DNA of 64,000 bases from an uncultured Pelagibacteraceae bacterium. Lineage in GTDB: Bacteria; Pseudomonadota; Alphaproteobacteria; Pelagibacterales; Pelagibacteraceae. Each line of letters begins with the position of its first letter. Position 1 is the first letter of the stretch. Where the stretch lies: contig CACKMS010000004.1 of NCBI GenBank assembly GCA_902601315.1, positions 20,672-84,671 of the forward strand, read 5' to 3'. A program made the position numbers and the translations under genes. Below, piece after piece: positions 37,237-52,717 of the stretch. Under the pieces are notes generated by a model, which saw nothing but the letters and a program-made list of their open reading frames with translations, was not told the origin of the DNA and made no database searches.

Positions 37237-38562
37237 TTAACAGTCTAATGTGTTAGCTCTTTCCCAATTTGTAATAGGTTTTCTTTTATTAAATACTTCT
37301 TTTCTTTTAAAATTTGATAATTCCGTTTTTTTCAATTTTAAATAACTTTTAATTACATCTTTTCCAAAAGCGTTATTTAACATTTTATTTTTTTCTAACA
37401 TACCCAATGCTTGGCCTATATCATTTGGAAGTTTTGCAAGGTTTGGATATTTTTTATAATCTGTATACATATTACAATGAAGAGGCTTACCAGGGTTAAT
37501 TTTTTTATTAATTCCCTCTATTCCTGCTGCTAGAACCCCTGCTTGTAATAAGTATGGATTTGCTGAGCCATCCATTAATCTTAATTCAAATCTTCCTTGA
37601 TCAGGAACTCTAATCATGTGTGTTCTATTATTCCCTGTATAAGAAATACTACTTGGAGACCAGGTTGCGCCTGATTTTGTTGGTGGTGCATTTATTCTTC
37701 TATAACTGTTGATAGTTGGGTTAAAAAAAGCTGATAAAGGTTGAGCATTTTTAATTAAACCACCAAGAAAGTTATAAGCTAATTTACTAAGTCCTAATTT
37801 ATCTTTTTTATCTAAAAATTTATTTACTCCACCACTCCAAACAGAGACATGAGCATGACAACCATTTCCGGTCAAATTGTTAAAAGGTTTTGGCATGAAA
37901 GTAGCTCTTAATCCGTGTTTCTCAGCAAGATTTTTTACCATGAATTTAAAGAACACATGTCTATCTGCAGTAACAAGACTATCAGAGTAATCCCAGTTCA
38001 TTTCAAACTGACCATTCGCATCTTCATGATCGTTTTGGTATGGTTTCCAACCAAGCTCAATCATGCTGTCACAAATTTCTTTAATTAGATCATATCTTCT
38101 CATTAACGCAGATTGGTCATAACAAGGTTTTGACTGTGTATCTCTTGGATCAGCTATAGATAAACCATCTTCAGAAATTAAAAAATATTCACATTCAACA
38201 CCTGACTTCATTTGAAGTTTTTTGGCTTTTAATTTTTGAATTTGATTTTTAAGCATTACTCTTGGTGATGCTTCAACTGGTTTTCCATCCATATATAAAT
38301 CAGATGCAAGCCATCCAATTTCTTTATTCCAAGGTAATTGAATTAAACTATCTGGATCAGGTATTGCAAACATATCACTATCAGCAGGTGTCATGTCTAA
38401 CCAGGTTGCAAATCCTGCAAATCCTGCACCATTCTTTTGCATTTCAGCAATTGCTTGAGCAGGAACTAATTTTGATCTTAATACTCCAAACAGATCAACA
38501 AAACTAATTAAAAAGTATTTTATTTTTTTTTGTTTAGCAATTTGTGAAAGATTTTTTGGCAT
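37237..38562 (-). CDS. gmaS: Gamma-glutamylmethylamide synthetase (GlnT-like), set 1
   Basis: RSKLVPA, GAGFAGFATW, KPCYDQ, NDHEDANGQFEMN, SGATWSP, NNRTHMIR. Confidence 0.9.
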   Translation of the reverse strand: MPKNLSQIAKQKKIKYFLISFVDLFGVLRSKLVPAQAIAEMQKNGAGFAGFATWLDMTPADSDMFAIPDPDSLIQLPWNKEIGWLASDLYMDGKPVEASPRVMLKNQIQKLKAKKLQMKSGVECEYFLISEDGLSIADPRDTQSKPCYDQSALMRRYDLIKEICDSMIELGWKPYQNDHEDANGQFEMNWDYSDSLVTADRHVFFKFMVKNLAEKHGLRATFMPKPFNNLTGNGCHAHVSVWSGGVNKFLDKKDKLGLSKLAYNFLGGLIKNAQPLSAFFNPTINSYRRINAPPTKSGATWSPSSISYTGNNRTHMIRVPDQGRFELRLMDGSANPYLLQAGVLAAGIEGINKKINPGKPLHCNMYTDYKKYPNLAKLPNDIGQALGMLEKNKMLNNAFGKDVIKSYLKLKKTELSNFKRKEVFNKRKPITNWERANTLDC

Positions 38563-38592: not shown

Positions 38593-39912
38593 TCAATCTT
38601 TTTCTTTAAATCCAGGTATCCAATTAGTTCCAGCTAATGGAACTCGTGCCATAGCAGCTGCTTCAACCGTTAAAGCAACCAAATCCTCAGGCTCTAAATT
38701 TCTTACATCAGACTTACCATTTGCTCTTGCTAAAGTCTGCAACTCTAACGTTAAAGTAGTCAAATAGTTTTTTAATTGTCTTCCACCTTCTTTTGGATCT
38801 AGTCTTTTCTCAAGTTTAGGATCTTGTGTTGCAACACCTACAGGACATCTACCTGTATGACAGTGATGACAGTAACCAGGTTCTGTTCCAAGTTTTTCAT
38901 AATCTTTTCTATATAAGTCCGCATTGCAATTCAATGCCATCATAGCAGCAGAACCGATTGATACTGCGTCCGCTCCCATAGCAAGCGCTTTTGCAACATC
39001 CGCTCCTGTTCTAATTCCACCCGAAACAATTAATTGAACTTTACGGTACATATTTAATTCTTTCAATGCATCAACTGCCTGTCTTAATGCTCCTAGAGTT
39101 GGAATACCAACGTGTTCAATAAAAACATCTTGTGTTGCAGCAGTTCCTCCTTGCATTCCATCTAATACAACGACATCTGCACCTGCTTTAACTGCAAGTG
39201 CAGTATCATAATAAGATCTTGCAGCACCTACTTTAATATAAATAGGTTTTTCCCAATTTGTTATTTCTCTTAGCTCTTGAATTTTGATCTCTAAATCATC
39301 TGGTCCAGTCCAATCAGGATGACGACATGCACTTCTCTGATCAATTCCCTCTGGTAGCGTTCTCATTCCTGCAACTCTTTTATTAATTTTTTGACCTAAA
39401 AGCATACCGCCACCACCTGGTTTTGCGCCTTGTCCAACAACAACTTCAATTGCATCTGCTTTTCTTAAATCATCAGGATTCATGCCATATCTAGAAGGAA
39501 GTAATTGGTAAACTAAATACTTAGATGAACCTCTTTCTTCTTTGGTCATTCCTCCATCACCTGTTGTTGTTGAAGTTCCCATTGAGGATGCGCCCCTTCC
39601 TAATGCATCTTTAGCATTAGCGCCTAAAGCACCAAAACTCATTCCAGCTATAGTAATAGGTATATCTAACTTTAAAGGTTTCTTTGCAAATCTGTCTCCA
39701 AGTACAACTGAAGTTTTACATTTTTCCCTATATCCTTCCAAAGGATATCTAGACATTGAAGCACCTAAGAAAACTAGATCATCAAAGTCAGGAACTTTTC
39801 TTTTAGCACCTAGCCCTCGAATTTGATAAATTCCCTCTTTAGCTGCTCTTTGAATTTCATTAATGGTTGATTGAGGAAATGTTTTAAATTCTTTTAAGCC
39901 TTTCTTTTTCAT
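38593..39912 (-). CDS. mgsC: N-methylglutamate synthase FMN subunit (GlxD/MgsC), set 1
   Basis: SRYPLEGYRE, GMSFG, GQGAKPGGGG, RHPDWTGPDDL, CHHCHTGRC. Confidence 0.88.
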   Translation of the reverse strand: MKKKGLKEFKTFPQSTINEIQRAAKEGIYQIRGLGAKRKVPDFDDLVFLGASMSRYPLEGYREKCKTSVVLGDRFAKKPLKLDIPITIAGMSFGALGANAKDALGRGASSMGTSTTTGDGGMTKEERGSSKYLVYQLLPSRYGMNPDDLRKADAIEVVVGQGAKPGGGGMLLGQKINKRVAGMRTLPEGIDQRSACRHPDWTGPDDLEIKIQELREITNWEKPIYIKVGAARSYYDTALAVKAGADVVVLDGMQGGTAATQDVFIEHVGIPTLGALRQAVDALKELNMYRKVQLIVSGGIRTGADVAKALAMGADAVSIGSAAMMALNCNADLYRKDYEKLGTEPGYCHHCHTGRCPVGVATQDPKLEKRLDPKEGGRQLKNYLTTLTLELQTLARANGKSDVRNLEPEDLVALTVEAAAMARVPLAGTNWIPGFKEKD

Positions 39913-40593
39913 TTAATACGCTCCTGCATTATCAATTTTAAAATTATAAAGTTTTCTAGCGGAACCATATCTTTTAAAATTTTTTGGATTTTCAGAAATA
40001 TTTAACTCTTTGAATATTTTTTTTAATTCATTAATACTCTTTTCATCCATTTTTTTTTCAACACAATCTGCCCCTAAACTCTTTACTTTACCCTTAACAA
40101 AGATTTTTGCCTCATAAATACTATCTCCCAAATCTTCATCTGCATCACCAAAAATAATTAAGTTTCCTTTTTGAGCCATAAACGCTGACATATGACCAAC
40201 AGACCCTTTAACAATAATATTAATTCCTTTCATAGAAATTCCACATCTTGAGCTCGCATCACCTTCAATAACAAGATTTCCACCATGGCCAGTAGCACCA
40301 GCAGATTGTGAAGCATTTCCTTTAACAAATACTTTTCCAGACATCATATTTTCAGCGACACCCGTTCCAACGTTTCCATTAACGGTAACAGATGCTTTTT
40401 GGTTCATTCCAGCACAATAGTATCCAGTATGCCCATTTATAGTTACATCAATATCATCTTTTAAACCTGCACATATCGCATGGTGACCCGAAGGATTCTC
40501 TATTTTAAATTTTCTAACATTACTTTTTCTATCTATATTTTGGAGATATTTGTTAATGTCAGTTAGTTTTTTTTTACTTAAATCAAAATTCAT
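39913..40593 (-). CDS. mgsB: N-methylglutamate synthase GXGXG subunit (GlxC/MgsB), set 1
   Basis: GYYCAGMN, AENMMSG, GISMKG, YGSARKLYNF. Confidence 0.88.
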   Translation of the reverse strand: MNFDLSKKKLTDINKYLQNIDRKSNVRKFKIENPSGHHAICAGLKDDIDVTINGHTGYYCAGMNQKASVTVNGNVGTGVAENMMSGKVFVKGNASQSAGATGHGGNLVIEGDASSRCGISMKGINIIVKGSVGHMSAFMAQKGNLIIFGDADEDLGDSIYEAKIFVKGKVKSLGADCVEKKMDEKSINELKKIFKELNISENPKNFKRYGSARKLYNFKIDNAGAY

Positions 40594-40595
40594 AA

Positions 40596-41474
40596 TTACC
40601 AGCTATAGACAACACCAGGTTTTGGTTCAAAAATCTTAGCAGAATTTACATTTGGCAAATGCGCCATTGCTTGAAATTCTGAAGCAACAGCAACATAGTC
40701 TTTTGTTTCAGCAACAACTGCTGGCTTACATGCAATCTCATCTCTCAATAAGGCAAAACCATCTTTAGTACCTGCAATAAAAGTATAAAAGCCATCCAAG
40801 TTTTTTAGACTACTTGTTAAAGTGTTTTTTAAATTACTTCCTTCAGAAATTTTGTTTGAAATATATCCAGCTGCAACCTCTGTATCATTTTCTGATTTAA
40901 ATTCTTGTCCTTTTTTAATTAAATCTCTTCTTACATTATTATGATTAGATAATGAGCCATTGTGAACTAAACATTCATCCTCAGCCGTACAGTAGGGATG
41001 CGACCCTTCAGTTGTGATAGCACTTTCAGTTGCCATTCTTGTATGACCGATACCATGAGTTCCAGAAAATGACGATAATTTAAATTTTTTAACTACATCT
41101 TTAGGATTACCAGTTTGCTTAAAAATGTTAATACTTTTACCGTATCCAACAATTGAAACATCTTTAATTTTCTCATTTATTACTTTTATTACTTCTTTAG
41201 GTTTATCTTTTGTTTCCATTATTATGTGGTCAGAGTATTTGATCATTTTAATTTTCTTAAAATATTTGGATATTTTCTTTTTAAAATCTTGCTCAGAAAG
41301 ATTGTTTAAACAAATTGAATATTTAAAATTATTTTGATTTTCTTTTGTGTAAATTGCAAATCCTGCACTATCAGGACCTCTTGTTGCCATATTATCTAAC
41401 ATTCCAGATAAAAATTTTCCTAAAGACTTTTCGTACTTTTTTGTTTTTAAATATATTCCAACTATTCCACACAT
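40596..41474 (-). CDS. mgsA: N-methylglutamate synthase Ntn-amidotransferase subunit (GlxB/MgsA), set 1
   Basis: MCGI N-terminus, RGPDSAG, HTRMATES, HNGSLSN, ENDTE. Confidence 0.88.
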   Translation of the reverse strand: MCGIVGIYLKTKKYEKSLGKFLSGMLDNMATRGPDSAGFAIYTKENQNNFKYSICLNNLSEQDFKKKISKYFKKIKMIKYSDHIIMETKDKPKEVIKVINEKIKDVSIVGYGKSINIFKQTGNPKDVVKKFKLSSFSGTHGIGHTRMATESAITTEGSHPYCTAEDECLVHNGSLSNHNNVRRDLIKKGQEFKSENDTEVAAGYISNKISEGSNLKNTLTSSLKNLDGFYTFIAGTKDGFALLRDEIACKPAVVAETKDYVAVASEFQAMAHLPNVNSAKIFEPKPGVVYSW

Positions 41475-41699: not shown

Positions 41700-41921
41700 T
41701 TAGCCGTCTGTTATATTGCTTTTCCAGTCATTAGCACCTGGTCTTTTTCTTGCAATTTTATTCATCTTACCATCTTCTTGTTTAGATGAAATTACATGCC
41801 AGCCGACCCAAATGATGATTGCTATAATAACTAGCACTCCTTCCGAGCCAACACCTGGATAAACAGATCCTTGTACCTCAGAGGCACTTAAATGATCTAT
41901 CCAATTTGATACTGTTGCCAT
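41700..41921 (-). CDS. Small membrane protein co-transcribed with amt (73 aa)
   Basis: Strong RBS (AGGAGG), one TM helix, 13 nt downstream of the amt stop. Confidence 0.75.
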   Translation of the reverse strand: MATVSNWIDHLSASEVQGSVYPGVGSEGVLVIIAIIIWVGWHVISSKQEDGKMNKIARKRPGANDWKSNITDG

Positions 41922-41934
41922 CTATATACCTCCT

Positions 41935-43335
41935 TTATCTACTGGCAGAGACTACAGCTTTTTCGTCTTCTTTAGCCTCCTCCATTATTGTGTAATCAAG
42001 TCCTGCAAGCTCTACTTCTTTTGGAATTCTTAATTTACCCATTCCATTTAGAACTTTAGCAATTATATAACCTGGAAGCATACCAAGTACAAAAAACATA
42101 ATTATTGCACCAATAAACATTCCTAAAGGATTAATAGCTGCATATGTAGTTCCATCCCACATTTCTCCTACACCATAACCAGATGAAGGATAACCGTTTA
42201 AAACAAAACCACAAATTACAAGACCAACAAATCCAGCATAACCGTGTACAGCTACTGCTCCAACTGCATCGTCGATTTTATATTTTCTCTCTACCCAGTA
42301 ATGCAATTTGTAAGCTATTACTACACCTATCATACCGATTATCATTGATTGAATTGGATGATATAAATCATTACCTGCAGATGCACAGATTATGCCCGCA
42401 AGTCCTGATGAATAAGTCCAAAAAGGATCTCCTTTTGATATTACATATCCTGCCAACAATCCTCCAGATAACGACATTAAAAAGTTCATCGTTATTCCAC
42501 TAAGTGTTGTTGGAGTTAAATAGATGTTAGTTGCTGTAAAGAAAGTTACACCTTCCATACCATACTCAGGTCCAAGATCGTAAATTGGAACATTACAAGC
42601 TGCGTAAAAGCCCCAAAAACCTGTATAGATTAAAAATAATCCAACAGTTACTAACCAAGGATTTCTTGGTCCAATGTTTCTAGGTTCTCCGCTCGAAGAA
42701 AATTTTCCAATTCTTGGTCCTAAAACAACAAGAACACCTAAAGCAAAACCTCCTGCAATTGCGTGAATTACACCTGAAGCATATGCATCGTGGTATCCTA
42801 ATATTTTTAACATCCATCCATCAAAATGCCATCCCCATGAAGCATCTATTGTCCAAAAAACAGATCCTATTGCAATTGCGAGAATTCCAAATGCAAAAGT
42901 TGTTATTCTTTCAATAACTGCCCCTGATACTATTGAGGCTGCAGTCCATGAAAATAATAAAAAGGCTGCCCAAAAGACACCCATTATATGATCGTTAAGA
43001 TTTACTGCCATCAATGCATTAGTAGGGTTAGCAAGATCATTTCCACCAAATCCACCTCCAAGAACTAGACCGGTACTCTCGGTCATAATCGAAGGAGCTA
43101 ATCCGGGTCCAGTTGGAAATGCCCAGTATATCCACCAACCAAAGAAAAACCACGTAACCGTAACCAAAGGTATAAGCATTGTGTTTTTCATAAGAGTGTG
43201 TTGGTGATGTTTGTATCGAGATGCCCCAACTTCATACATACAAAATCCTACGTGGATCAAAAACATAAGAACCACAGTTACCCAATAGTAAAACTCTGTA
43301 AATATTGATGTGAGAGCACCTAATTGATCAGTCAT
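41935..43335 (-). CDS. amt: Amt/Mep/Rh family transporter, atypical (probably methylamine-related)
   Basis: SIVSGAVIER, HDAYASGVIH, LGPRIGKF, DDAVGAVAVHG (twin His retained). Confidence 0.88.
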   Translation of the reverse strand: MTDQLGALTSIFTEFYYWVTVVLMFLIHVGFCMYEVGASRYKHHQHTLMKNTMLIPLVTVTWFFFGWWIYWAFPTGPGLAPSIMTESTGLVLGGGFGGNDLANPTNALMAVNLNDHIMGVFWAAFLLFSWTAASIVSGAVIERITTFAFGILAIAIGSVFWTIDASWGWHFDGWMLKILGYHDAYASGVIHAIAGGFALGVLVVLGPRIGKFSSSGEPRNIGPRNPWLVTVGLFLIYTGFWGFYAACNVPIYDLGPEYGMEGVTFFTATNIYLTPTTLSGITMNFLMSLSGGLLAGYVISKGDPFWTYSSGLAGIICASAGNDLYHPIQSMIIGMIGVVIAYKLHYWVERKYKIDDAVGAVAVHGYAGFVGLVICGFVLNGYPSSGYGVGEMWDGTTYAAINPLGMFIGAIIMFFVLGMLPGYIIAKVLNGMGKLRIPKEVELAGLDYTIMEEAKEDEKAVVSASR

Positions 43336-43452: not shown

Positions 43453-43854
43453 TTAAAATTTTAAGTAAGCTTTCTTTAAATCAACTAGAGGATGATTCGG
43501 TGACATTTGAAATTTGACAAGAAGCTCTCTTGCTATCATATCTCTGTCCTGTTGATTGTTAGGTAGTTTTATTTTGCTTGGAATAGTGACCCAACCATTA
43601 GCATTTCTATCAAACACAGCTGGTCTATTTTCTTCATACCCCATATGAACATCTTCTAACCAATTCAAATCATCCCAACCCATTGCTTCAATATATTTTT
43701 TAAGAAATGGAGTTAATCTTGAGTAATCTGGCAAAAGATTTACATCATATCGATAACCGATTGTTTGACCAATCATTTTTTCTCTAGCTGTCTCTTTTTT
43801 TTTATCTAATTGGCCTTTTACTGCTTTTGATTTTTTTTTGTTTTTCTTAGCCAT
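43453..43854 (-). CDS. Hypothetical protein, last gene of the second glutamylation set
   Basis: 133 aa, 9 nt after the mgsC paralog; W/D-rich core WDDLNWLEDVHMGYE. Confidence 0.7.
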   Translation of the reverse strand: MAKKNKKKSKAVKGQLDKKKETAREKMIGQTIGYRYDVNLLPDYSRLTPFLKKYIEAMGWDDLNWLEDVHMGYEENRPAVFDRNANGWVTIPSKIKLPNNQQDRDMIARELLVKFQMSPNHPLVDLKKAYLKF

Positions 43855-43863
43855 AATCAGTTT

Positions 43864-45255
43864 CTATATTTTATGAAAGTCTTTAACACCTACTGTGTGG
43901 TTAGTTCCTGCTAATGGAACTTTTGCTAAAGCTGATGCCTCCATAGTTAATGCAGCCATGTCTTCTGGCTCTAAAGAGTGGATATTTGTTTTTCCACATG
44001 CTCTTGCAAGAAGCTGTGCCTCTAATGTCATTGCATGTAAATAATTATATACTCTTAATGCAGCATCATCTGGGTTTAATCTTTTTCTTAATTTTGGATC
44101 TTGAGTAGCTACACCAACTGGACATCTACCTGTATGGCAGTGATAACAATGACCTGCTGGAACTCCCATCTCTTTTTCAAAATTAGACTCTGGAATTTCT
44201 TTGTTACAGTTAAGAGCGACCATAGCACCTGTTCCAATTGCAATTGCATCAGCACCTAATGCTAAAGCTTTTGCCATGTCAGCACCATCTCTTACTCCAC
44301 CTGCATAAATTAAAGTAACTTTTCCAGTTTTACCAACATCATCTAAAGCTCTTCTTGCTTCTCTAATACCAGCGATACCAGGAATACCCGTATTTGCTGC
44401 TGCAATGTGTGGGCCTGCTCCAGTGGAACCTTCCATTCCATCTAAATAAATAGAGTCTGGATCACATTTCGCTGCCATACGAACATCATCGTAAACTTTA
44501 GCAGCACCAAGTTTTAACTGAATTGGCACTTTATTTTTTGTTAATTCTCTTAATTCTTGAACTTTTAATGCAAGATCATCTGGACCTAACCAGTCAGGAT
44601 GTCTTGCAGGAGATCTTTGATCAATACCAGCAGGTAGTGATCTCATTTCTGCAACCTGATCAGTTACTTTCTGACCCATTAAGTGACCACCCATTCCAAC
44701 TTTTTGACCTTGTCCAATGAAAACCTCAATTCCATCTGCAAGTTGGGCGTGATGCGGATTAAAACCATATCTAGATTGAATACATTGATAGAACCATTTC
44801 TCGGAATATCTTCTCTCATCGGGTATCATTCCACCTTCACCTGAACAAGTAGCACTTCCAGCCATTGTTGCTCCTCTTGCTAAAGCAGTCTTTGCCTCAT
44901 AAGATAATGCACCAAAACTCATTCCAGTGATATAAACAGGTATATCTAATTCAATTGGATTTTCACATCTTGGCCCAATGATTGTTTTTGTTTCACATTT
45001 TTCTCTGTAACCTTCAATTACAAATCTTGTTAAAGTTCCAGGTAAAAATACTAGATCATCAAATGTTGGAATTTTTTTCATCAATGCCATTCCACGCATC
45101 CTGTATCTTCCTAGTTCTGCTTTTATGTGGATGTCATCCATTACCTCTGGGGTAAAAATTGCATTATGACCTAGTAGACTTTTATTTCTTGACGCTACAC
45201 CATTGCCATTTGAATGACCGTTAGATTTTCCGTTACCGTTTTTTTTCTTTGCCAT
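43864..45255 (-). CDS. FMN-binding glutamate synthase family protein (MgsC paralog), set 2
   Basis: IEGYREKC, GMSFG, GQGQKVGMGG, RHPDWLGPDDL, CYHCHTGRC. Confidence 0.88.
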   Translation of the reverse strand: MAKKKNGNGKSNGHSNGNGVASRNKSLLGHNAIFTPEVMDDIHIKAELGRYRMRGMALMKKIPTFDDLVFLPGTLTRFVIEGYREKCETKTIIGPRCENPIELDIPVYITGMSFGALSYEAKTALARGATMAGSATCSGEGGMIPDERRYSEKWFYQCIQSRYGFNPHHAQLADGIEVFIGQGQKVGMGGHLMGQKVTDQVAEMRSLPAGIDQRSPARHPDWLGPDDLALKVQELRELTKNKVPIQLKLGAAKVYDDVRMAAKCDPDSIYLDGMEGSTGAGPHIAAANTGIPGIAGIREARRALDDVGKTGKVTLIYAGGVRDGADMAKALALGADAIAIGTGAMVALNCNKEIPESNFEKEMGVPAGHCYHCHTGRCPVGVATQDPKLRKRLNPDDAALRVYNYLHAMTLEAQLLARACGKTNIHSLEPEDMAALTMEASALAKVPLAGTNHTVGVKDFHKI

Positions 45256-46110
45256 TTAAATTGCTCCTTTTTTCTCTGTAGGTTCAAGAGCGTCGTAGTT
45301 CCAAAGTTTTTTACCTGCAACAACTTTGGTCATTTTTGAAACATCAAAGTTTTCACCGATCTCCGCAACCTTTAATTTTCTTTTAAGCCAATCTTGATCT
45401 GAATCTGTTAGCTCTGCTTCAACTGCATCACTACCAAATGAACCAATTTTTCCACCTACAAAAATTGTCCCATCGTACATACTGTCGCCTAGGTTAATAC
45501 CCACATCCCCAAGGATAATAATTCTTCCTCTTTGCATCATAAAGCCTGTAAAAGCGCCAGCATCACCACCAATTATTATAGTTCCACCTTTTTGATCTAT
45601 ACCAGTTCTTGCACCAACGCTACCTTTGCAGATTAAATCTCCACCTCGAATAGCAGCGCCAAAGCATGACCCAGCATTCTTCTCAATAACAACTTTTCCT
45701 GCCATCATATTTTCAGCACATGACCATCCAACTCTTCCATTAATTCTAACAATTGGACCATCCATCGAGCCAACACCAAAATATCCAAGACTTCCTTCAA
45801 ATATTAAATTCAATTTATTTAAAATTCCAACTCCTAAACTATGTTTACCTTGAGGGTTTTTAATAACAATCGTTCCATAACCCTCTTTCATTAAATCATC
45901 AATTTTTTTATTTGCTTCTCTGCACTCCATATCTTTGACATCAATCTCTGTTCTTTTATTAAAATCAACATCGTATGTTCCAAAGTAGTAGAAATTTTCA
46001 GCCTCATCTGGATTAAAAAACTTTTGCTGTGTTTTTCCTGTTAGAACCTCAGTGTGAAGACCCATTGATTGGGCTTTTGTTTTTTTTTCTCCAGTTTTTA
46101 GATTTGCCAT
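45256..46110 (-). CDS. GXGXG-domain protein (MgsB paralog) with N-terminal extension, set 2
   Basis: GSLGYFG, AENMMAG, GAAIRGG, LGDSMY. Confidence 0.85.
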   Translation of the reverse strand: MANLKTGEKKTKAQSMGLHTEVLTGKTQQKFFNPDEAENFYYFGTYDVDFNKRTEIDVKDMECREANKKIDDLMKEGYGTIVIKNPQGKHSLGVGILNKLNLIFEGSLGYFGVGSMDGPIVRINGRVGWSCAENMMAGKVVIEKNAGSCFGAAIRGGDLICKGSVGARTGIDQKGGTIIIGGDAGAFTGFMMQRGRIIILGDVGINLGDSMYDGTIFVGGKIGSFGSDAVEAELTDSDQDWLKRKLKVAEIGENFDVSKMTKVVAGKKLWNYDALEPTEKKGAI

Positions 46111-47039
46111 ACTTTTACCATCCCATCAAATGGATCATACGTATCTATCTCTTGAGGTAGAATAGATCTGATTGCTATTTCTTCTGATCCCATTGCAACT
46201 AAATCATCAGATTCATATAAAACTAATGGTTTAGCCGCCATTGTGTCTTTTGCCATTCCTAAAGAATCTTTTGTTGCAACAAAATAAGTAAATACACCAT
46301 CTAAGCCCATTAAAGACTCTTTCATACCTTCTTCAAGTGTTGCACCATTTCTCATTTTTTCAGCTAAATAGACTGCAATTAATTCAGAGTCACATTCTGA
46401 CATAAATCTCATGCCTTTATTTTCTAAAACTCTTCTATTATTCCAATAATTAGTTAATTGACCATTATGCACCACTGATACATCGCTAAATGGGTATCCC
46501 CAAAAAGGGTGAGCAGACTTAATATCTACACCAGACTCTGTTGCCATTCTTGCATGACCTATAGCGTGCGTTCCTTCAACTTTATCTAAACTATATCTTT
46601 TACATACTGCTTCAGCGTTTCCTAAATCTTTAATAACCTCTAATGATTTACCCATGGATAAAATTTCAACACCAGTAACACTCTCAATTTTTTGAGAAAA
46701 TTCCATTAGATCTTTATCATATTGAATTTCGTATCTTAAAGAGTAGGGAAGAGTTCTTTCTTCTTTTACGATTGTAGCGCCTAAGTCTTTTAAATAGCCA
46801 TCTACAATTTTTTTTCTTTCATCGTAAACAGAAACATCTTCCATTACTGAATTACTTCCTTCACCAACATTTTCACCAACTTTAAATCGCATTATAAAGT
46901 TTTGACCATCAGTCTTACCGTACAACGCATATCCAGTTGAGTCTTCACCTCTGTGTTTTAAGGCTTGAAGCATACCCTGAAGTTCAAAACCAACTTTGGA
47001 AGTATTTCCTCTATGAATAAGTCCAGCTATCCCGCACAT
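46098..47039 (-). CDS. Ntn-type glutamine amidotransferase (MgsA paralog), set 2
   Basis: MCGI, HRGEDSTG, HARMATES, HNGQLTN, CDSE. Confidence 0.87.
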   Translation of the reverse strand: MCGIAGLIHRGNTSKVGFELQGMLQALKHRGEDSTGYALYGKTDGQNFIMRFKVGENVGEGSNSVMEDVSVYDERKKIVDGYLKDLGATIVKEERTLPYSLRYEIQYDKDLMEFSQKIESVTGVEILSMGKSLEVIKDLGNAEAVCKRYSLDKVEGTHAIGHARMATESGVDIKSAHPFWGYPFSDVSVVHNGQLTNYWNNRRVLENKGMRFMSECDSELIAVYLAEKMRNGATLEEGMKESLMGLDGVFTYFVATKDSLGMAKDTMAAKPLVLYESDDLVAMGSEEIAIRSILPQEIDTYDPFDGMVKVWQI

Positions 47040-47060
47040 ATTTTCCTTTCGTAATTTATA

Positions 47061-48530
47061 TTATGGTAAACAATCTAAATAGGTGTCAAGATCCCATTGT
47101 GTTGTTGCACCCAAGAATCTTTCCCACTCATCATTTTTGTACCAATGAAACACCTTATACATCTCATCTGGCATTGCAGATTTAATAACTTCATCTTCCG
47201 CTAATCTTTCTAAAGCTTCTCCTAAACTCAATGGAAGTTTTTTAACATCCTTACCAGCTTTTTGAGCTTCATAAATATTTCTAGACTCTGGTGCTGCAGG
47301 TTTCATTTTTTTGGAAATACCTTCATCACAAGCCTTAAGTAATGCAGCACCTAATAAATAAGGATTATGCATACTATCAACTGATCTGTACTCAAATCTA
47401 CCTGGAGCAGAAACTCTTAATCCACAAGTTCTGTTTTGATATCCCCAGTCAGCATAAACAGGCGCCCAGAAACCTTGATCCCATAATCTTCTGTAAGAGT
47501 TTACTGTTGAAGATCCTAAGGCAGTTAATGCAGGCAAATGTTTCATGATACCAGCAATTGATTGTAATCCAATTTTACCTGGCATCTGCATATCTTTAGT
47601 ATCTGGCATAAAAGTATTTGTTCCACCTGACACATAACTAAATACTTCTTCAACACCTGGTAATTTTTTATGCCCAAGTTTATTCACTGAAATTTTTCCA
47701 CCTTTCCATAAAGACATATTGGTATGACACCCACTAGCAGAAACTCCCATAAATGGTTTTGTCATAAAACAAGCAATCAATCCGTTTTCTCTTGCTACTT
47801 GTGCACAGATTTGTCTGTATGTTGAGAGCCTATCAGCGTTTCTTAAAACATTATCAAACGTCCAGTTTAATTCTAATTGACCTGGAGCATCTTCATGGTC
47901 TCCTTGGATCATGTCTAGACCCATCGCTTTTGAATATTCAATTACTTTCATAAAAACAGGTCTTAAAGATTCAAATTGATCAATGTGATAACAGAACGGT
48001 TTTGAAAAACCTTTTCCAGTTGGCGTGCCATCAGGATTTTTCGTTAACCACATCATTTCTGGCTCTGTTCCAACTCTTAGTTCAAGACCATGTTTTTTCT
48101 TAAATTCATCCATGAAAATTCTTAAATTTCCTCTGCAGTCAGAAGTTAAATGCCCACCTGGATTTTTTCTTTCTTCTCTATTTCTAAAACATGTACAAAA
48201 AACTCTTCCAACTCTTTTATCCCAAGGTAATTGAACAAAAGTTTCAGGATCAGGAATACCAACTAACTCCATAGCTTCTGGTCCATATCCAATATAATTA
48301 TTGTGACGATCTAAAAATAAGTTTGCAGTCGCACCGTAAACTAATTGAAAACCTCTTTCCGCGGTTCTCTCCCAATGGTCTGCTGGAATACCTTTACCAA
48401 CAACTCTTCCTGTTACAGAAATAAACTGAAAATAAATATATGTTATTCCTAACTCGTTAATTTTTTCTCTAACTTTTTTTACAAGTTTTGCTCTACCTGG
48501 TTGATTTACATGTTTTTCTAGATCAGTCAT
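47061..48530 (-). CDS. Glutamine synthetase-like gamma-glutamyl-amine ligase (GmaS paralog), set 2
   Basis: GTEPE, DHEDAPGQLE, FMTKPF..SASGCH, YRRL...FWAP, NRT, RFEYR. Confidence 0.85.
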   Translation of the reverse strand: MTDLEKHVNQPGRAKLVKKVREKINELGITYIYFQFISVTGRVVGKGIPADHWERTAERGFQLVYGATANLFLDRHNNYIGYGPEAMELVGIPDPETFVQLPWDKRVGRVFCTCFRNREERKNPGGHLTSDCRGNLRIFMDEFKKKHGLELRVGTEPEMMWLTKNPDGTPTGKGFSKPFCYHIDQFESLRPVFMKVIEYSKAMGLDMIQGDHEDAPGQLELNWTFDNVLRNADRLSTYRQICAQVARENGLIACFMTKPFMGVSASGCHTNMSLWKGGKISVNKLGHKKLPGVEEVFSYVSGGTNTFMPDTKDMQMPGKIGLQSIAGIMKHLPALTALGSSTVNSYRRLWDQGFWAPVYADWGYQNRTCGLRVSAPGRFEYRSVDSMHNPYLLGAALLKACDEGISKKMKPAAPESRNIYEAQKAGKDVKKLPLSLGEALERLAEDEVIKSAMPDEMYKVFHWYKNDEWERFLGATTQWDLDTYLDCLP

Positions 48531-48598
48531 TGTCCCCCTTTAAGAATTTTAAGTTCGAAAAAGTAACTGAAAAAAAAACGTCTGTCTACTTAGAACGA

Positions 48599-49924
48599 TT
48601 AACTCCAAGGAAACGGACTGTTCGAAGTGGGGTGCAATTCACCTTTCGCGTATCGATTGAATCTAAACGGTTTTAACAAATCACTCTCATGTCCTAAAAT
48701 TTCTTGCGCAACTAAATGACCAACACCAATCATTTTGTAACCATGATTGGCATCTGCAATCATATAAACATTTTCAAAAAATCTATCGAAGATTGGAAAA
48801 CTATCTGGCGTTAAACATCCAAGACCACCTGATGGTCCTTTTCTATATAAGTTTGATTTTCCTACAAATCTTTTCTGAATATGTGCTAGAGCTGAAGTCC
48901 ACATATCTGCAAATTTATCTGTTGTTTGAAATTCTGGTGACTCTATTCCATACGGGTCTACATTTACTTCATCAAAATGTTTTTGAACAATATAAGGTGA
49001 AGTACCACCTTGAACACCTAAGCCTTCAATATCAGGTTTGTAATAAATGCCCCATAGTTCATCAGTAATTAATTTACCTGTTGCATCTGAATGCAATGGC
49101 GCATCTGTATCAACATGAATTACAGGTGGTTGTTTACCATCGTTAGTTTTTAAATAATCTGCATCAACACCAAGGACACCTTCTTGTAAAAACCAATATT
49201 TCCACATTTCAACTTCATGTGATTTTCCATCTTTACCTTTTATCTCAGTTGTTTTTGGTAGCTCTAGCATATTCCAAAAATCTCTTACCCATGGTCCTGC
49301 TCCAACGACAACTTGATCACAATCAATTGTTCCTTGATTAGTTACAACACCAGTAACCGCATTACTGTTACTACCTCTTTTAAATCCTGTTACCTTCACT
49401 CCTTTATGGACGTGAACTCCATTGTTGTTAGCTTTGCTTTCTAAAGCTTTAATAGAATCTTTATTAAATGCGTATCCACCCTTTTTTTCATGAAGAACAG
49501 AAGTTATTCCTTGTGCTTGCCAATCATCAAAAATTCCTTTCATGTAATTCATACAATCTTTTTCACCTTCAACAAAAACTGACTCGTATCCAATTGCTTT
49601 TTGTTGTTCATAAATACTTCTTACATCTTCATGCATTACTTCAGGTGAAATTTGCATGTAGCCAACTGGATTATATTTAAATGCTTTTGGATCGCTTTCC
49701 CAAACTGAGACTGAATGGGCCATTAATTCTCTCATCGCAGGTTGGAAATAGTTGTTTCTAACAACTCCACAAGCAATTCCACTTGCGCCTGCGGCTGTAT
49801 CTTTTTTTTCTAGAACAACAACGTCACCTGGATTTTTATATGTCTCTGATAATTTCCAAGCAGTACTTAATCCATGGATACCCCCACCGATTATAACTAC
49901 TTTTGCTTTTGTCGGTAATGACAT
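48599..49924 (-). CDS. FAD-dependent oxidoreductase, DAO / sarcosine oxidase beta family
   Basis: GGGIHG dinucleotide fold, GASGIACGVVRNNY, TPDSFPI, NHGYK. Confidence 0.85.
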   Translation of the reverse strand: MSLPTKAKVVIIGGGIHGLSTAWKLSETYKNPGDVVVLEKKDTAAGASGIACGVVRNNYFQPAMRELMAHSVSVWESDPKAFKYNPVGYMQISPEVMHEDVRSIYEQQKAIGYESVFVEGEKDCMNYMKGIFDDWQAQGITSVLHEKKGGYAFNKDSIKALESKANNNGVHVHKGVKVTGFKRGSNSNAVTGVVTNQGTIDCDQVVVGAGPWVRDFWNMLELPKTTEIKGKDGKSHEVEMWKYWFLQEGVLGVDADYLKTNDGKQPPVIHVDTDAPLHSDATGKLITDELWGIYYKPDIEGLGVQGGTSPYIVQKHFDEVNVDPYGIESPEFQTTDKFADMWTSALAHIQKRFVGKSNLYRKGPSGGLGCLTPDSFPIFDRFFENVYMIADANHGYKMIGVGHLVAQEILGHESDLLKPFRFNRYAKGELHPTSNSPFPWS

Positions 49925-50029: not shown

Positions 50030-50380
50030 CTAGAAGCTCAAATTTTTAAGGGTCCTTAAATAATCATTAAACTCATTTATAAAAGACTGACTTGGTTTTA
50101 TGTGTTTCTTTCTTTGATCCTTTGAGGTTTTTTCAAGATAGAAAAAACCTTTTTCACATGCTTCTGTAATAATTAGAGCCGATTTAGGTCTAGATGTTTT
50201 AAATAATTTTGTTTTAAGCTCTTCAACGGAAAGGTTTTGGTTTAGTTTGTAGGCAGTCATTACAAGCAACATCATATGATAATGAGATGGTGATTTTCTA
50301 AAAAAATAGTTAGATGATGTATGTGATAATTTTAATTGGTCCTCCCAGAATTCTAATAAGTCTTTTGTAGCTTTTGACAT
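50030..50380 (-). CDS. MarR-like winged-helix protein
   Basis: SRPK...I......GF.....KDQRKK wing motif; directly abuts tdm. Confidence 0.6.
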   Translation of the reverse strand: MSKATKDLLEFWEDQLKLSHTSSNYFFRKSPSHYHMMLLVMTAYKLNQNLSVEELKTKLFKTSRPKSALIITEACEKGFFYLEKTSKDQRKKHIKPSQSFINEFNDYLRTLKNLSF

Positions 50381-52717
50381 TTAGGATCTAACTCTAGTTT
50401 TTTGTGGATCAAAATGCGGAAAGCCAACTATTTTAGCAGGAATTCTTTTTTGGTGACCATCAATTTTACCAACTTCAACATCTGTTCCTATTTCGGAGTG
50501 ACCAACATCGATTCTACATAAAGCAATATTTTTATTTAAAGTGGGAGATAAACAAGCACTTGTTACAATACCTACTTGTGCTCTTCCAATATGAACACAG
50601 TCGCCATGATTTGCTTTTTCTTTACCAATTAATTCAAGTCCAACTAATTTTTTTTGAGGATTTTCTTTTCTTTTAATTAAGTTTTCTTTACCAATAAATT
50701 CATCTGTTTTCGTTTTTAATGGTACTGAAAAACCTATTCCTGCTTCAAAAGGATCTTGCTGGCCATCAAATTCATTTCCAAATAAAATTAAACCTGCTTC
50801 AATTCTAAGTAAATCTAATGCACCAAATCCTGCTGGAATTAAACCTTCGTCTTTTCCAGCTTCCATAACTTTATCCCAAACTTCTGGTGCATGATCAGGA
50901 TGACACCAGATTTCGTAACCTAATTCTCCCGTGTAACCTGTTCTTGAAACAATTAATGGAATTCCTTTTAAATCATCTGCTCTACAAATAGTAAATCTGA
51001 ACCATTGAAGTTCAGAAATAGTTGGTTGCGTAGGTGGCGTAAAAATAAATTTTTCCAAAATTTTTCTACTTTTAGGACCTTGCAATGAAATATTATTAAT
51101 TTGGTCTGTAGAATTTTTAATTATTACTTTGTAATTTTTTTTCTTAGCTTGTTCTTTTAACCATTCTCCAGCGTACTCATCACCACAAACCCATCTAAAT
51201 CCCGTTTCACTTAATCTTAATAAGGTTCCATCATCAAACATCATTCCATTTTCATAACACATTGCTGAGTAAACAATTTGACCAACCGATAATTTTTTAA
51301 CATTACGTGTTAAGGTATAATTCATTAACTCTTCTGCATCAGGTCCAATTATTTCAAATTTTCTCAAAGAAGATAAATCAATAACAACAGCTTTTTCTCT
51401 ACAAGCAGTGTATTCGTTTATTACCCCATGTTTTGTGTAATCATTTGGTAACCAAAAACCTCTTGCATCAACATAGTTTCTAGTTAACTTTGAAGTTCTT
51501 TCATAAAATCCAGTATTTCTTGTAAGTTTATTTTCCGAGTCTGTTTTCATTCTAAATCCAAATGACTTTGTGAATTCATTTTTCTTGTCGTAAGTTCTAA
51601 CAAAAATATCAGTTGGATTCCAACCATTACAGCTATCGATATCGCTAGGACATGCTGTTGTCCCACATGTTAAATCTTTAAGAGCTCTAAATATTACATA
51701 GTCACCAGGTCTTGCAAAAGACTCATCTGATAATACTGAATTTTGACCACCTGCAGAGGTATTGAAAAACAAGTTTATTGCATGCCATCCTCTTTTTTTT
51801 TGAACACCATATTTTTCCATACTTTCATTAAGATTATCTGAACAATTAGCATGTCCAAAATATCCAGCATCTTCATAGTATTTAGATGTACAAGCCAAAT
51901 TAAATGTATCGTGAATTCCGACTGTATCTCTTACCACCTCAATTAATGGTTCATGGTCAACATCATAAAATTTTGAGAATAAACCAGGACCAGGAAAAGT
52001 ATGACCCATGAAGGTTCTTGTTGTTTGCCAATCCAAACCGTTTTCTTGTCCTTTATCTAATTTAGCAGTATCAAAAGCTACAAAATCTGAACATTGTCTT
52101 CCGGTTGGTGTTATTACTTGGATATAATCTCCTTCTTTAACTTGATAAGAATCTGCTGTTGTTCTTTTAATATCAATTTCCCCAGAAGGGTCATACACAG
52201 GATCAGGTATCAATGAGAATTCTTTATCCTTTTTTTTTATAGCTCTTTTAACCAATACCGTTAAATCAGTAGATGGATTTTGTTCATGAACGATCATTGA
52301 ATTGCCCGGCGCAGAAAATATACAATAACATTTGTCTTTAGATTTTAATTTTATAATTTCTTCTGCATTTGCATCCTCGTTAAATAGAATTGCTGATTTT
52401 GATTTTTCTATGTCTAGATTTCTTTTTTTTAATTGATAAAGAGCCTGTAAAGATGTTTCGTTCTTCTTAAATAAAATTTTTTTTATTTCAGAACAATTTT
52501 TATTTTCTTTTAGATTTAAAATTCCTAAATCAGATTTTCCATCTTTGTTAAAAACTGTAATTTCACAAATTTGATTTCCTTCATCATTAATAATTTCAAT
52601 TTCGTCATCTGGATGAATCTGAACACCTGTTAGTCCACCACCATTAACTACATATCTTTCAACTCCAAGTGGTAATGTATTTAATCCAGGTTCTTTTATA
52701 TTAAGACTTGTTTGCAT
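50381..52717 (-). CDS. tdm: Trimethylamine N-oxide demethylase (DUF1989 + GcvT)
   Basis: GRQCSDF, LACT..YYE..GY.GHANCS, TACPSDID metal-ligand motifs; C-terminal GcvT domain SRTGYTGELGYE. Confidence 0.9.
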   Translation of the reverse strand: MQTSLNIKEPGLNTLPLGVERYVVNGGGLTGVQIHPDDEIEIINDEGNQICEITVFNKDGKSDLGILNLKENKNCSEIKKILFKKNETSLQALYQLKKRNLDIEKSKSAILFNEDANAEEIIKLKSKDKCYCIFSAPGNSMIVHEQNPSTDLTVLVKRAIKKKDKEFSLIPDPVYDPSGEIDIKRTTADSYQVKEGDYIQVITPTGRQCSDFVAFDTAKLDKGQENGLDWQTTRTFMGHTFPGPGLFSKFYDVDHEPLIEVVRDTVGIHDTFNLACTSKYYEDAGYFGHANCSDNLNESMEKYGVQKKRGWHAINLFFNTSAGGQNSVLSDESFARPGDYVIFRALKDLTCGTTACPSDIDSCNGWNPTDIFVRTYDKKNEFTKSFGFRMKTDSENKLTRNTGFYERTSKLTRNYVDARGFWLPNDYTKHGVINEYTACREKAVVIDLSSLRKFEIIGPDAEELMNYTLTRNVKKLSVGQIVYSAMCYENGMMFDDGTLLRLSETGFRWVCGDEYAGEWLKEQAKKKNYKVIIKNSTDQINNISLQGPKSRKILEKFIFTPPTQPTISELQWFRFTICRADDLKGIPLIVSRTGYTGELGYEIWCHPDHAPEVWDKVMEAGKDEGLIPAGFGALDLLRIEAGLILFGNEFDGQQDPFEAGIGFSVPLKTKTDEFIGKENLIKRKENPQKKLVGLELIGKEKANHGDCVHIGRAQVGIVTSACLSPTLNKNIALCRIDVGHSEIGTDVEVGKIDGHQKRIPAKIVGFPHFDPQKTRVRS

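What the first reader, a model, noticed from the sequence alone, without database searches (positions are those of the whole stretch)
43453..49924. Second, divergent gmaS+mgsABC-like set with its own FAD oxidoreductase: candidate dimethylamine glutamylation pathway
Seen: directly downstream of tdm, one same-strand run encodes an FAD oxidoreductase, a GS-like ligase, an Ntn-GATase, a GXGXG protein, an FMN glutamate-synthase-like protein and a 133-aa hypothetical. This parallels the canonical gmaS-mgsABC at 37.2-41.5 kb but is very divergent from it. Both ligases have Trp at the GS Glu-flap position (ATWSP; GFWAP), like amine-glutamylating GS homologs rather than ammonia GS. Known: Tmm converts TMA to TMAO, Tdm converts TMAO to DMA plus a C1 unit, and GmaS/Mgs act on MMA. 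The DMA-to-MMA step normally needs DmmABC or a DMA dehydrogenase, neither of which is in this window; as I recall, SAR11 genomes were reported to lack Dmm. Inference: set 2 may run DMA to gamma-glutamyl-dimethylamide to N,N-dimethylglutamate, with the FAD enzyme demethylating that to N-methylglutamate, filling the missing step without a monooxygenase.
Basis: partly seen in the sequence, partly recalled or inferred. Interest (0 to 1): 0.9.

Follow-up and report, generated by a model that had tools for sequence, protein, structure and literature searches.

The report
Candidate dimethylamine pathway in SAR11 bacteria
Behind the gene that releases dimethylamine from TMAO, this SAR11 ocean bacterium carries a conserved, unassayed five-gene set that did not occur together with the known dimethylamine-oxidising enzyme in the genomes sampled, and it likely captures dimethylamine onto glutamate, which would fill a long-open gap in how the ocean's most abundant bacteria consume this aerosol-forming amine.

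Summary
Set 2 is an old paralogue of gmaS-mgsABC (27-52% identity) and matches HTCC1062 SAR11_1304-1309 by gene order. Its fixed core is ligase-mgsA2B2C2-hyp133; the FAD gene is a looser partner.

- Among 401 Alphaproteobacteria, 24 of 36 ligase-positive genomes have tdm, against 8 of 365 others.
- None of the 36 has DmmA. Four of the five tdm genomes lacking set 2 have dmmDABC (3 below-cut-off tdm hits set aside).
- In SAR11, 0 of 49 ligase-negative genomes have tdm.

New points:
- Canonical mgsABC1 is the dispensable set (43 of 102 ligase-positive SAR11 genomes).
- The ligase keeps the GmaS catalytic residues.
- Its sister clades sit beside P450s and dioxygenases, as in recalled cyclic secondary-amine pathways.

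Best reading (~0.55): DMA to gamma-glutamyl-dimethylamide to N,N-dimethylglutamate, then demethylation. No chemistry is shown. The FAD step is weakest: the gene was not found in 6 of 34 set-2 genomes and is regulated differently in published proteomics. The scan found this cassette before on other DNA.

The parts
50381..52717 (-). tdm, TMAO demethylase (DMA source)
   Evidence: NF053776 1116 bits, cut-off 1100; upstream of the cassette in 75 of 75 SAR11 loci with room to show it
50030..50380 (-).
   Evidence: conserved in SAR11 loci; no Pfam/NCBIfam hit; Atlas neighbours carry HTH_27/HTH_24 in 11% of members, a lead only
48599..49924 (-). FAD oxidoreductase of SoxB/MSOX/DMGO fold (SAR11_1304 by gene order); likely N-demethylase, loose partner
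   Evidence: PF01266; model pLDDT 91; best folds sarcosine oxidase beta, MSOX, dimethylglycine oxidase, MTOX at 16-20% identity; in 27 of 34 set-2 genomes
47061..48530 (-). lig2: GmaS-type amine:glutamate ligase of a separate clade; likely DMA glutamylase
   Evidence: keeps RhGmaS K30', Y147, Q175, D177, E179, E186, N188, W300, R312; differs Y174I, N176G, G231A, H237N and in the Asp50' loop; own clade, SH-aLRT 99
46098..47039 (-). mgsA2: Ntn amidohydrolase subunit
   Evidence: PF13522/PF13537; Cys at residue 2 and GHxRxATES, HNG motifs kept
45256..46110 (-). mgsB2: GXGXG subunit
   Evidence: PF01493
43864..45255 (-). mgsC2: FMN glutamate-synthase-like subunit with Fe-S cysteine motif
   Evidence: PF01645; 74-86% identity across Alphaproteobacteria; CxHCHTGRCP motif
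43453..43854 (-). hyp133: fixed partner behind mgsC2, unnamed family, possibly a fourth subunit
   Evidence: 66-77% identity across families; seen in 31 of 33 non-SAR11 cassettes; at least 8000 homologues, and those of the best 120 that carry a name are all called hypothetical
41935..43335 (-). Amt-family transporter (SAR11_1310 type), possible methylamine channel
   Evidence: PF00909; same subtype flanks both set-2 and dmm clusters
41700..41921 (-). 73-aa ORF behind amt, homologue of a small protein that follows this amt type
   Evidence: (E 2.8e-6); cluster c2 in 12 loci
38593..41474 (-). mgsABC1, canonical-type NMG synthase, accessory in SAR11
   Evidence: mgsA1 in 45 of 151 order genomes; amt followed directly by gmaS in 52 loci vs by mgsA1 in 14
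37237..38562 (-). gmaS (canonical MMA ligase)
   Evidence: TIGR03105 628.7 bits; E 1.7e-174 to RhGmaS 7CQL

Best explanation
The five-gene core (ligase, mgsA2B2C2, hyp133) sits behind tdm, did not co-occur with dmmDABC in the genomes sampled, and is likely an oxygenase-free route that captures dimethylamine onto glutamate. Step 1 (inferred): lig2 uses ATP to join DMA released by Tdm to glutamate, giving gamma-glutamyl-dimethylamide. Step 2 (inferred from recalled Mgs/glutamate-synthase chemistry): MgsA2 cleaves the amide and channels the amine to the FMN/Fe-S subunit MgsC2, which exchanges it onto the alpha-carbon of glutamate, giving N,N-dimethylglutamate and freeing ammonium. Step 3 (least certain): a SoxB-fold flavoprotein removes the methyls as C1 units. 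The adjacent FAD enzyme likely does this where present, with Mgd/SoxBDAG finishing or replacing it. MgsABC2 likely also accepts gamma-glutamylmethylamide from GmaS, which would explain why mgsABC1 is dispensable. Shown: genes, residues, clade, co-occurrence. Not shown: any reaction.
For: (1) lig2 vs tdm in 401 Alphaproteobacteria: 24 both, 12 lig2 only, 8 tdm only, 357 neither. (2) DmmA occurs in 6 genomes, all lig2-negative, and in 0 of 36 lig2-positive genomes. Among tdm genomes: 24 set 2 only, 4 dmm only, 0 both, 1 neither (G456, tdm at a contig end; its congener has set 2). This is after setting aside 3 tdm-like hits below the NF053776 cut-off; with them, 4 have neither. Fisher p 2e-4 (2e-3 with them); 17 set-2 families vs 4 dmm families, none shared. 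Kin are not independent, so p overstates. (3) SAR11 order: tdm in 0 of 49 lig2-negative genomes, in 5 of 5 lig2-positive controls and in 75 of 75 loci with room. (4) Linkage recurs in several gene orders. tdm lies within 20 kb of lig2 in 10 of 22 non-SAR11 tdm+lig2 genomes (coordinates) and inside 33 of 80 metagenomic loci, none with dmm. A DMFase-family gene, another possible DMA source, is beside the cassette in L119, L234 and L238. The same amt plus small ORF flanks both dmm and set-2 clusters. (5) Canonical GmaS coexists with lig2 in 26 of 34 genomes, so lig2 is not a GmaS substitute. GmaS is in 6 of 6 dmm genomes but was not found in four tdm+set-2 genomes, as expected if no free MMA is made. 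(6) RhGmaS ligates DMA weakly (Km 16 mM vs 27 uM for MMA; PMC7948447 Table 1), so the chemistry is possible. (7) Sister clades of lig2 (39-60%) lie beside one P450 family or a PhyH dioxygenase, often with an ABC transporter and in some a class I GATase. I recall this layout from piperidine/morpholine clusters. (8) HTCC1062 grows on TMAO as sole N source without dmm (PMC8918994, passages).
Against: No assay exists, and the amine pocket differs from GmaS only modestly, so sequence cannot tell MMA from DMA. Twelve of 36 lig2 genomes have no intact tdm. None of those 12 has tmm and only 4 of 12 have a DMFase-family gene, a family that is not DMA-specific. The held-out genome G713 has only a tdm remnant. 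The FAD gene was not found in 6 of 34 set-2 genomes, including complete G210, and it is present in G031, G108 and dmm-positive G460 without an intact set 2. In HTCC1062 SAR11_1304 protein rose under N limitation while 1305 and 1308 fell to about 0.67 (PMC3870248, tables). MgsABC2 is the only Mgs found in 59 of 102 SAR11 set-2 genomes, which fits an MMA role equally well. Only 6 dmm genomes were in the sample. The secondary-amine precedent is recalled, and no characterised sequence could be placed in the tree. DMA dehydrogenase was excluded only in the own genome.
Confidence: 0.55

Rival explanations
1. Set 2 is an ancient second monomethylamine (NMG) pathway, the main Mgs of SAR11; DMA from Tdm is excreted or handled by an unlinked enzyme.
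For: lig2 keeps all seven RhGmaS MMA-pocket residues. mgsABC1 was not found in 59 of 102 set-2 SAR11 genomes while gmaS stays. PMC5520151 (passages) argues for a DMA bottleneck.
Against: It does not explain exclusion of dmm but not of gmaS, the tie to tdm rather than to gmaS (G030, G149 keep gmaS without tdm or set 2), two ligases in streamlined genomes, or growth on TMAO as N source (PMC8918994).
Confidence: 0.2
2. The ligase and Mgs2 act on another small amine (another secondary amine, ethylamine, or a product of betaine-type catabolism), and the link to tdm reflects a shared methylamine island.
For: A third of lig2 genomes lack intact tdm and lack tmm. Sister clades serve other substrates. 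RhGmaS is broad (PMC7948447).
Against: Perfect tdm tracking in SAR11 and dmm exclusion. dmm itself lacks tdm in 2 of 6 genomes, the same share as set 2.
Confidence: 0.11
3. The FAD enzyme oxidises free DMA to MMA plus formaldehyde, and lig2/Mgs2 capture the MMA.
For: In SAR11 it is the first enzyme gene after tdm. It has an amine-oxidase fold. PMC3870248 proposed an amine demethylase role.
Against: Not found in tdm-positive, dmm-negative G210, G470, G238, G176, G228; present in dmm-positive G460. Its fold relatives act on N-methyl amino acids, not free amines (substrate knowledge recalled).
Confidence: 0.07
4. DMA is glutamylated by lig2, but the amide is N-demethylated to gamma-glutamylmethylamide before Mgs2 acts; no N,N-dimethylglutamate forms.
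For: Sister-clade ligases sit with P450s and dioxygenases that would oxidise an amide N-alkyl group. It would let Mgs2 use one substrate from both ligases.
Against: The core cassette has no oxygenase, and flavin amine oxidases need a basic amine (established chemistry, recalled). A PhyH gene is near set 2 in only a few loci.
Confidence: 0.07

Closest known systems
N-methylglutamate pathway: GmaS + MgsABC + MgdABCD (Ruegeria pomeroyi, Rhodovulum 12E13, Methyloversatilis, Methylocella)
   Same: Same domain set (GS-fold ligase, Ntn-GATase, GXGXG, FMN GltB); ligase keeps the Asp177/Glu186 catalytic pair and the Trp flap.
   Different: 27-52% identity; ligase below the TIGR03105 cut-off and in its own clade; extra fixed subunit hyp133; frequent monomeric flavoprotein; tracks tdm and excludes dmm rather than gmaS.
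SAR11_1304-1309 of 'Ca. Pelagibacter ubique' HTCC1062 (sox, glnT, gltB2, hypothetical)
   Same: Same gene order from tmoX/tdm to ygeX (PMC3160333, PMC3870248, PMC2704228 passages); matched by order, not by sequence.
   Different: Published only as generic 'glutamine synthetase', 'glutamate synthase' and 'monomeric sarcosine oxidase'; no DMA role for 1305-1309 in the passages I read.
DmmDABC dimethylamine monooxygenase (R. pomeroyi; PMC5520151)
   Same: Proposed same job; same neighbourhood (tdm, tmm, amt plus small ORF).
   Different: Unrelated proteins; Dmm is a haem monooxygenase releasing free MMA, whereas set 2 would use ATP and flavins; never in the same genome in the sample.
P450-linked gamma-glutamyl ligases of cyclic secondary-amine catabolism (Pseudomonas KU43P piperidine pathway, Mycobacterium pipA/morABC clusters; recalled, papers not held)
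   Same: Ligases 39-54% identical to lig2 and in its clade lie beside related P450s; PMC9477822 (passages) shows GS genes adjacent to PipA-like P450s, overexpressed on molinate.
   Different: Those use an oxygenase and a class I GATase; set 2 uses an Mgs-like flavoenzyme. I could not place any characterised ligase sequence in the tree.

Membership tests
GmaS (TIGR03105) | score above curated cut-off 469.6 | tested here: not met
   lig2 294.6 bits; set-1 ligase 628.7
GmaS (TIGR03105) | RhGmaS Mg/ATP/glutamate and amine-pocket residues, Trp flap | tested here: met
   K30', E122, E124, Y147, Q175, D177, E179, E186, N188, H235, R288, W300, R312, R317, E325, R327 kept; Y174I, G231A, H237N, N176G differ
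GmaS (TIGR03105) | MMA as preferred amine | not testable with these tools
   needs an enzyme assay
Ammonia glutamine synthetase (GlnA) | Glu flap glutamate and Asp50' aspartate | tested here: not met
   Trp355 at the flap; LVYGA in the Asp50' loop; TIGR00653 241.8 vs cut-off 429
N-methylglutamate synthase MgsABC | three separate subunits: Ntn-GATase with N-terminal Cys, GXGXG, FMN GltB domain | tested here: met
N-methylglutamate synthase MgsABC | forms N-methylglutamate from GMA/MMA | not testable with these tools
   indirect only: sole Mgs found beside gmaS in many SAR11 genomes
Sarcosine oxidase beta / MgdA (TIGR01373) | score above 529 and soxBDAG operon | tested here: not met
   73.6 bits; no soxD/soxA in the cassette; a separate soxBDA lies on contig C21
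Monomeric sarcosine oxidase (TIGR01377) | score above 480 | tested here: not met
   36.4 bits; the fold is shared, TM about 0.72 at 16-19% identity
DmmDABC | PF11927 haem subunit with DmmA (PF22289) | tested here: not met
   none in the window or own genome; the same searches rang in 46 and 6 other genomes; own genome 85.8% complete
Piperidine-type secondary-amine glutamylase | orthology to the characterised enzymes | tested here: inconclusive
   no reference sequence or paper obtainable; only neighbourhood resemblance

The most novel reading that the evidence does not exclude
SAR11 and at least 16 other alphaproteobacterial families degrade dimethylamine by an undescribed, oxygenase-free glutamylation route through gamma-glutamyl-dimethylamide and N,N-dimethylglutamate, using a four-subunit Mgs variant. 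This route, not DmmABC, is the dominant DMA sink encoded in the surface ocean, so the published genetic 'DMA bottleneck' does not exist.
Probability: 0.45. Interest if true: 0.9.

Novelty: new variant of a known kind. Interest (0 to 1): 0.78.

Why it matters
SAR11 carries tmm, tdm and gmaS but no dmm. This gap was used to propose that DMA accumulates in seawater and feeds marine aerosol (PMC5520151). Yet HTCC1062 grows on TMAO as its only nitrogen source (PMC8918994), and the DMA route is stated as open (PMC3870248). A named cassette in 102 of 151 sampled SAR11-order genomes makes the question testable with one ligase assay and one complementation. If true, it adds two metabolites and a second DMA pathway, changes marker-gene budgets of marine methylamine cycling (set 2 outnumbered dmm 36 to 6 in the sample), and supplies an ATP-dependent secondary-amine amide ligase.

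Tried and rejected
Complex prediction of hyp133 with MgsC2 gave no answer (score 0.00). The fold search of the hyp133 model (pLDDT 75) found nothing above Z 3.3, and the Atlas gave no usable hit; neither shows a new fold.

PF11927 alone over-calls Dmm. Of its 46 hits only 6 have DmmA, and the one hit in a set-2 genome (G468) lies among acyl-CoA dehydrogenase/aldolase genes, so it was not counted as dmm.

The genome-contig scan returned only SAR11. A phylum-wide sample of 201 gave one new positive and no non-alpha genome, so exclusivity was tested in Alphaproteobacteria only.

Promoter and terminator scans were at or below chance, and Rfam found nothing. RNA-run contigs cannot rank genes or show one transcript. 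The careful tree did not finish; the quick tree is reported, with a long-branch warning, and every third cassette ligase was used. My first ORF caller picked antisense frames in high-GC loci and was redone.

Paper searches found no paper assigning DMA to this cassette:
- gamma-glutamyl-dimethylamide / dimethylglutamate terms
- SAR11_1304-1309
- SAR11 plus DMA
- piperidine glutamylation
The library lacks most subscription papers, and I read no supplements. Lidbury 2017 Table S3 and Gao 2022 Fig. 1 could bear on this.

Rejected: ammonia GS, recent duplication of set 1, and Trp flap as a DMA marker.
Full report
Observation. The window is a SAR11 contig: near-identical loci are titled Pelagibacteraceae, and the own genome is 1.21 Mb and 85.8% complete. 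On the minus strand it reads tdm, a 116-aa ORF, FAD oxidoreductase, GS-like ligase (lig2), Ntn-GATase, GXGXG, FMN GltB domain, hyp133, amt, mgsABC1, gmaS, diaminopropionate ammonia-lyase. tmoXVW and tmm lie just upstream. This order equals HTCC1062 SAR11_1302-1317 as listed in PMC3160333, PMC3870248 and PMC2704228 (passages and tables read; matched by order only). Set 1 and set 2 share 27, 34, 38 and 52% identity, while MgsC2 is 74-86% identical across alphaproteobacterial families. The two sets are therefore old paralogues, not a SAR11 duplication.

Anatomy. Mapped through the 7CQL alignment and the residues named in PMC7948447 (parts 1-3 of 6 read), lig2 keeps the metal, ATP and glutamate ligands, the Asp177/Glu186 catalytic pair and the Trp flap. 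It differs at Y174I, N176G, G231A, H237N and the Asp50' loop; these changes were seen in all aligned cassette ligases, and the atypical G231 protein differs. It is an amine ligase, not an ammonia GS, and it fails the GmaS equivalog cut-off. N176G beside the catalytic Asp could widen the pocket, but that is inference. RhGmaS accepts DMA poorly (Km 16 mM). The FAD protein folds confidently and matches sarcosine oxidase beta, MSOX, dimethylglycine oxidase and MTOX at 16-20% identity. hyp133 is strongly conserved and unnamed.

What travels together. In 80 SAR11 loci the run tdm-116aa-fad-lig2-mgsA2B2C2-hyp133 is constant apart from contig ends and two loci with internal inversions, L008 and L026; tdm is seen in 75 of 75 loci with room. 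The variable part is the canonical mgsABC1: amt is followed directly by gmaS in 52 loci and by mgsA1 in 14. Genome-wide, lig2 is in 102 of 151 order genomes (two partial at contig ends; the tally includes unpublished G076) and mgsA1 in 45, of which 43 are lig2-positive. Outside SAR11, 33 of 34 lig2 genomes carry mgsA2B2C2 behind it. In 80 metagenomic loci fetched with a SAR324-labelled protein the counts are mgsA2 78, mgsB2 69, mgsC2 59, hyp133 50, GntR 40, tdm 33, fad 27 and dmm 0, with many contigs cut short. The core is five genes; fad is a frequent partner.

In one fixed sample of 401 Alphaproteobacteria, lig2 was in 36, tdm in 32 and PF11927 in 46. lig2 and tdm share 24 genomes. True dmm clusters (DmmA present) were in 6 of 80 genomes searched, namely all 46 PF11927 hits, the other 33 non-SAR11 lig2 genomes and G456. 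None is lig2-positive, and G000 and G005 were negative too. Of the 8 tdm genomes without lig2, 4 have dmm, 3 are divergent tdm-like proteins below the NF053776 cut-off, and 1 is G456, whose tdm is at a contig end. Fisher p is 2e-4 without those three and 2e-3 with them; 17 set-2 families and 4 dmm families do not overlap. Relatedness inflates these values, and the dmm group is small. In the SAR11 order tdm was absent from all 49 lig2-negative genomes and present in 5 of 5 positive controls; I did not search tdm genome-wide in most of the other lig2-positive ones. Canonical GmaS is in 26 of 34 set-2 genomes and 6 of 6 dmm genomes, so set 2 excludes Dmm, not GmaS. dmm and set 2 share neighbours: an amt of the window's type plus a ~75-aa ORF flanks 3 of 6 dmm clusters and 9 set-2 loci.

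Relatives of the ligase. A quick ML tree (careful run unfinished, long-branch warning) puts lig2 in a clade (SH-aLRT 99) apart from GmaS. The clade includes 52-60% relatives paired with a second GS, mostly an ABC transporter, a PhyH dioxygenase or P450 and in some a class I GATase. It also includes 39% actinobacterial relatives, two of three beside a P450. The three adjacent P450s share the same best PDB match, 3P3L, and two are 65% identical. I recall 3P3L as AurH of the CYP151 family, the Gordonia locus as the xplAB cluster, and piperidine breakdown in Pseudomonas KU43P as starting with gamma-glutamylation; these come from no call. PMC9477822 (passages) supports only that GS genes adjoin PipA-like P450s and are overexpressed on molinate. 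This is a lead that the lineage handles secondary amines, not a test.

Results against. The FAD gene was not found in 6 of 34 set-2 genomes (a seventh has only a 42% paralogue at a cut contig), and it persists in G031, G108 and dmm-positive G460. Its protein rose under N limitation while SAR11_1305 and 1308 fell (PMC3870248). Twelve lig2 genomes have no intact tdm; none has tmm and 4 have DMFase-family genes. The held-out G713 is dmm-negative as predicted but has only a tdm remnant and an apparently frameshifted mgsC2. MgsABC2 being the sole Mgs beside gmaS implies it handles the MMA amide, which also fits a pure MMA role. DMA dehydrogenase (PF00724 fold) was excluded only in the own genome.

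Expression. Contigs from metatranscriptomes of four studies cover the set-2 genes; these show presence only. HTCC1062 proteomics detected 1304, 1305 and 1308 (PMC3870248).

Mechanism and verdict. Most likely lig2 traps DMA as the gamma-glutamyl amide, MgsABC2 (with hyp133) converts it to N,N-dimethylglutamate while releasing ammonium, and flavin demethylases (the adjacent FAD enzyme and/or SoxBDAG/Mgd, adjacent in several loci) strip the methyls. I put this at about 0.55; the entry step is better supported than the FAD step. It works like the NMG pathway, but the ligase is not a member of GmaS. The genes are known and generically annotated; my searches found no paper giving them a DMA role. 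PMC8918994 (passages) postulates an unknown Dmm isoenzyme in HTCC1062, and PMC5520151 (passages) states that SAR11 lacks dmmDABC. Earlier notes of this scan reached the same candidate on other genomes; my reading was fixed before that call and rests on my own counts.

Noticed in passing
window 38593-41474; L001-L080: The textbook mgsABC is the accessory set in SAR11 (43 of 102 set-2 genomes), and where present it ranges 65-96% in MgsA identity, suggesting repeated gain, loss or exchange.
   Followed up: yes
L149-L153, L177, L179: A sister cassette of two different GS-like ligases with a PhyH dioxygenase or P450, mostly a polyamine-type ABC transporter and in some a class I GATase; probably catabolism of another (cyclic or secondary) amine; may be a heteromeric ligase.
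   Followed up: partly
L181:6659-12151: The Gordonia KTR9 plasmid carries a 39% lig2 relative between a P450 and an FAD oxidoreductase plus flavodoxin-P450 (recalled as the RDX xplAB cluster), hinting that this cluster descends from a secondary-amine glutamylation operon.
   Followed up: partly
L142:5096-5650 and 19 other loci (cluster c1): An unnamed ~190-aa protein lies next to hyp133, usually convergent, in 20 non-SAR11 loci and in 23 of 80 metagenomic loci; no Pfam hit; not found in the own genome.
   Followed up: no
window 41700-41921: A 73-aa ORF with a hydrophobic segment follows amt; homologues follow the same amt type in set-2 and dmm clusters. Possible transporter accessory.
   Followed up: partly
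window 50030-50380: SAR11-specific 116-aa possible HTH protein between tdm and the FAD gene; other lineages have a divergent GntR or XRE-cupin regulator there.
   Followed up: partly
L263 (G031), L262 (G108): SAR11 genomes that lost tdm and set 2 but keep the FAD gene and the 116-aa ORF; G108 keeps a lig2 fragment.
   Followed up: partly
window 38593-39912 and 43864-45255; L162:14437-15873: Both window MgsC proteins carry the Fe-S cysteine motif, whereas the MgsC of dmm-positive G547 lacks it, so Mgs comes in Fe-S and Fe-S-less forms.
   Followed up: partly
L167-L169: A divergent tdm-like family (about 1000-1020 bits, below the NF053776 cut-off) with its own betaine-type ABC transporter, in genomes with neither dmm nor set 2; may demethylate another N-oxide.
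   Followed up: partly
L119:1400-4198, L234, L238: N,N-dimethylformamidase-family genes next to the cassette; two set-2 genomes hold 4-5 such paralogues.
   Followed up: partly
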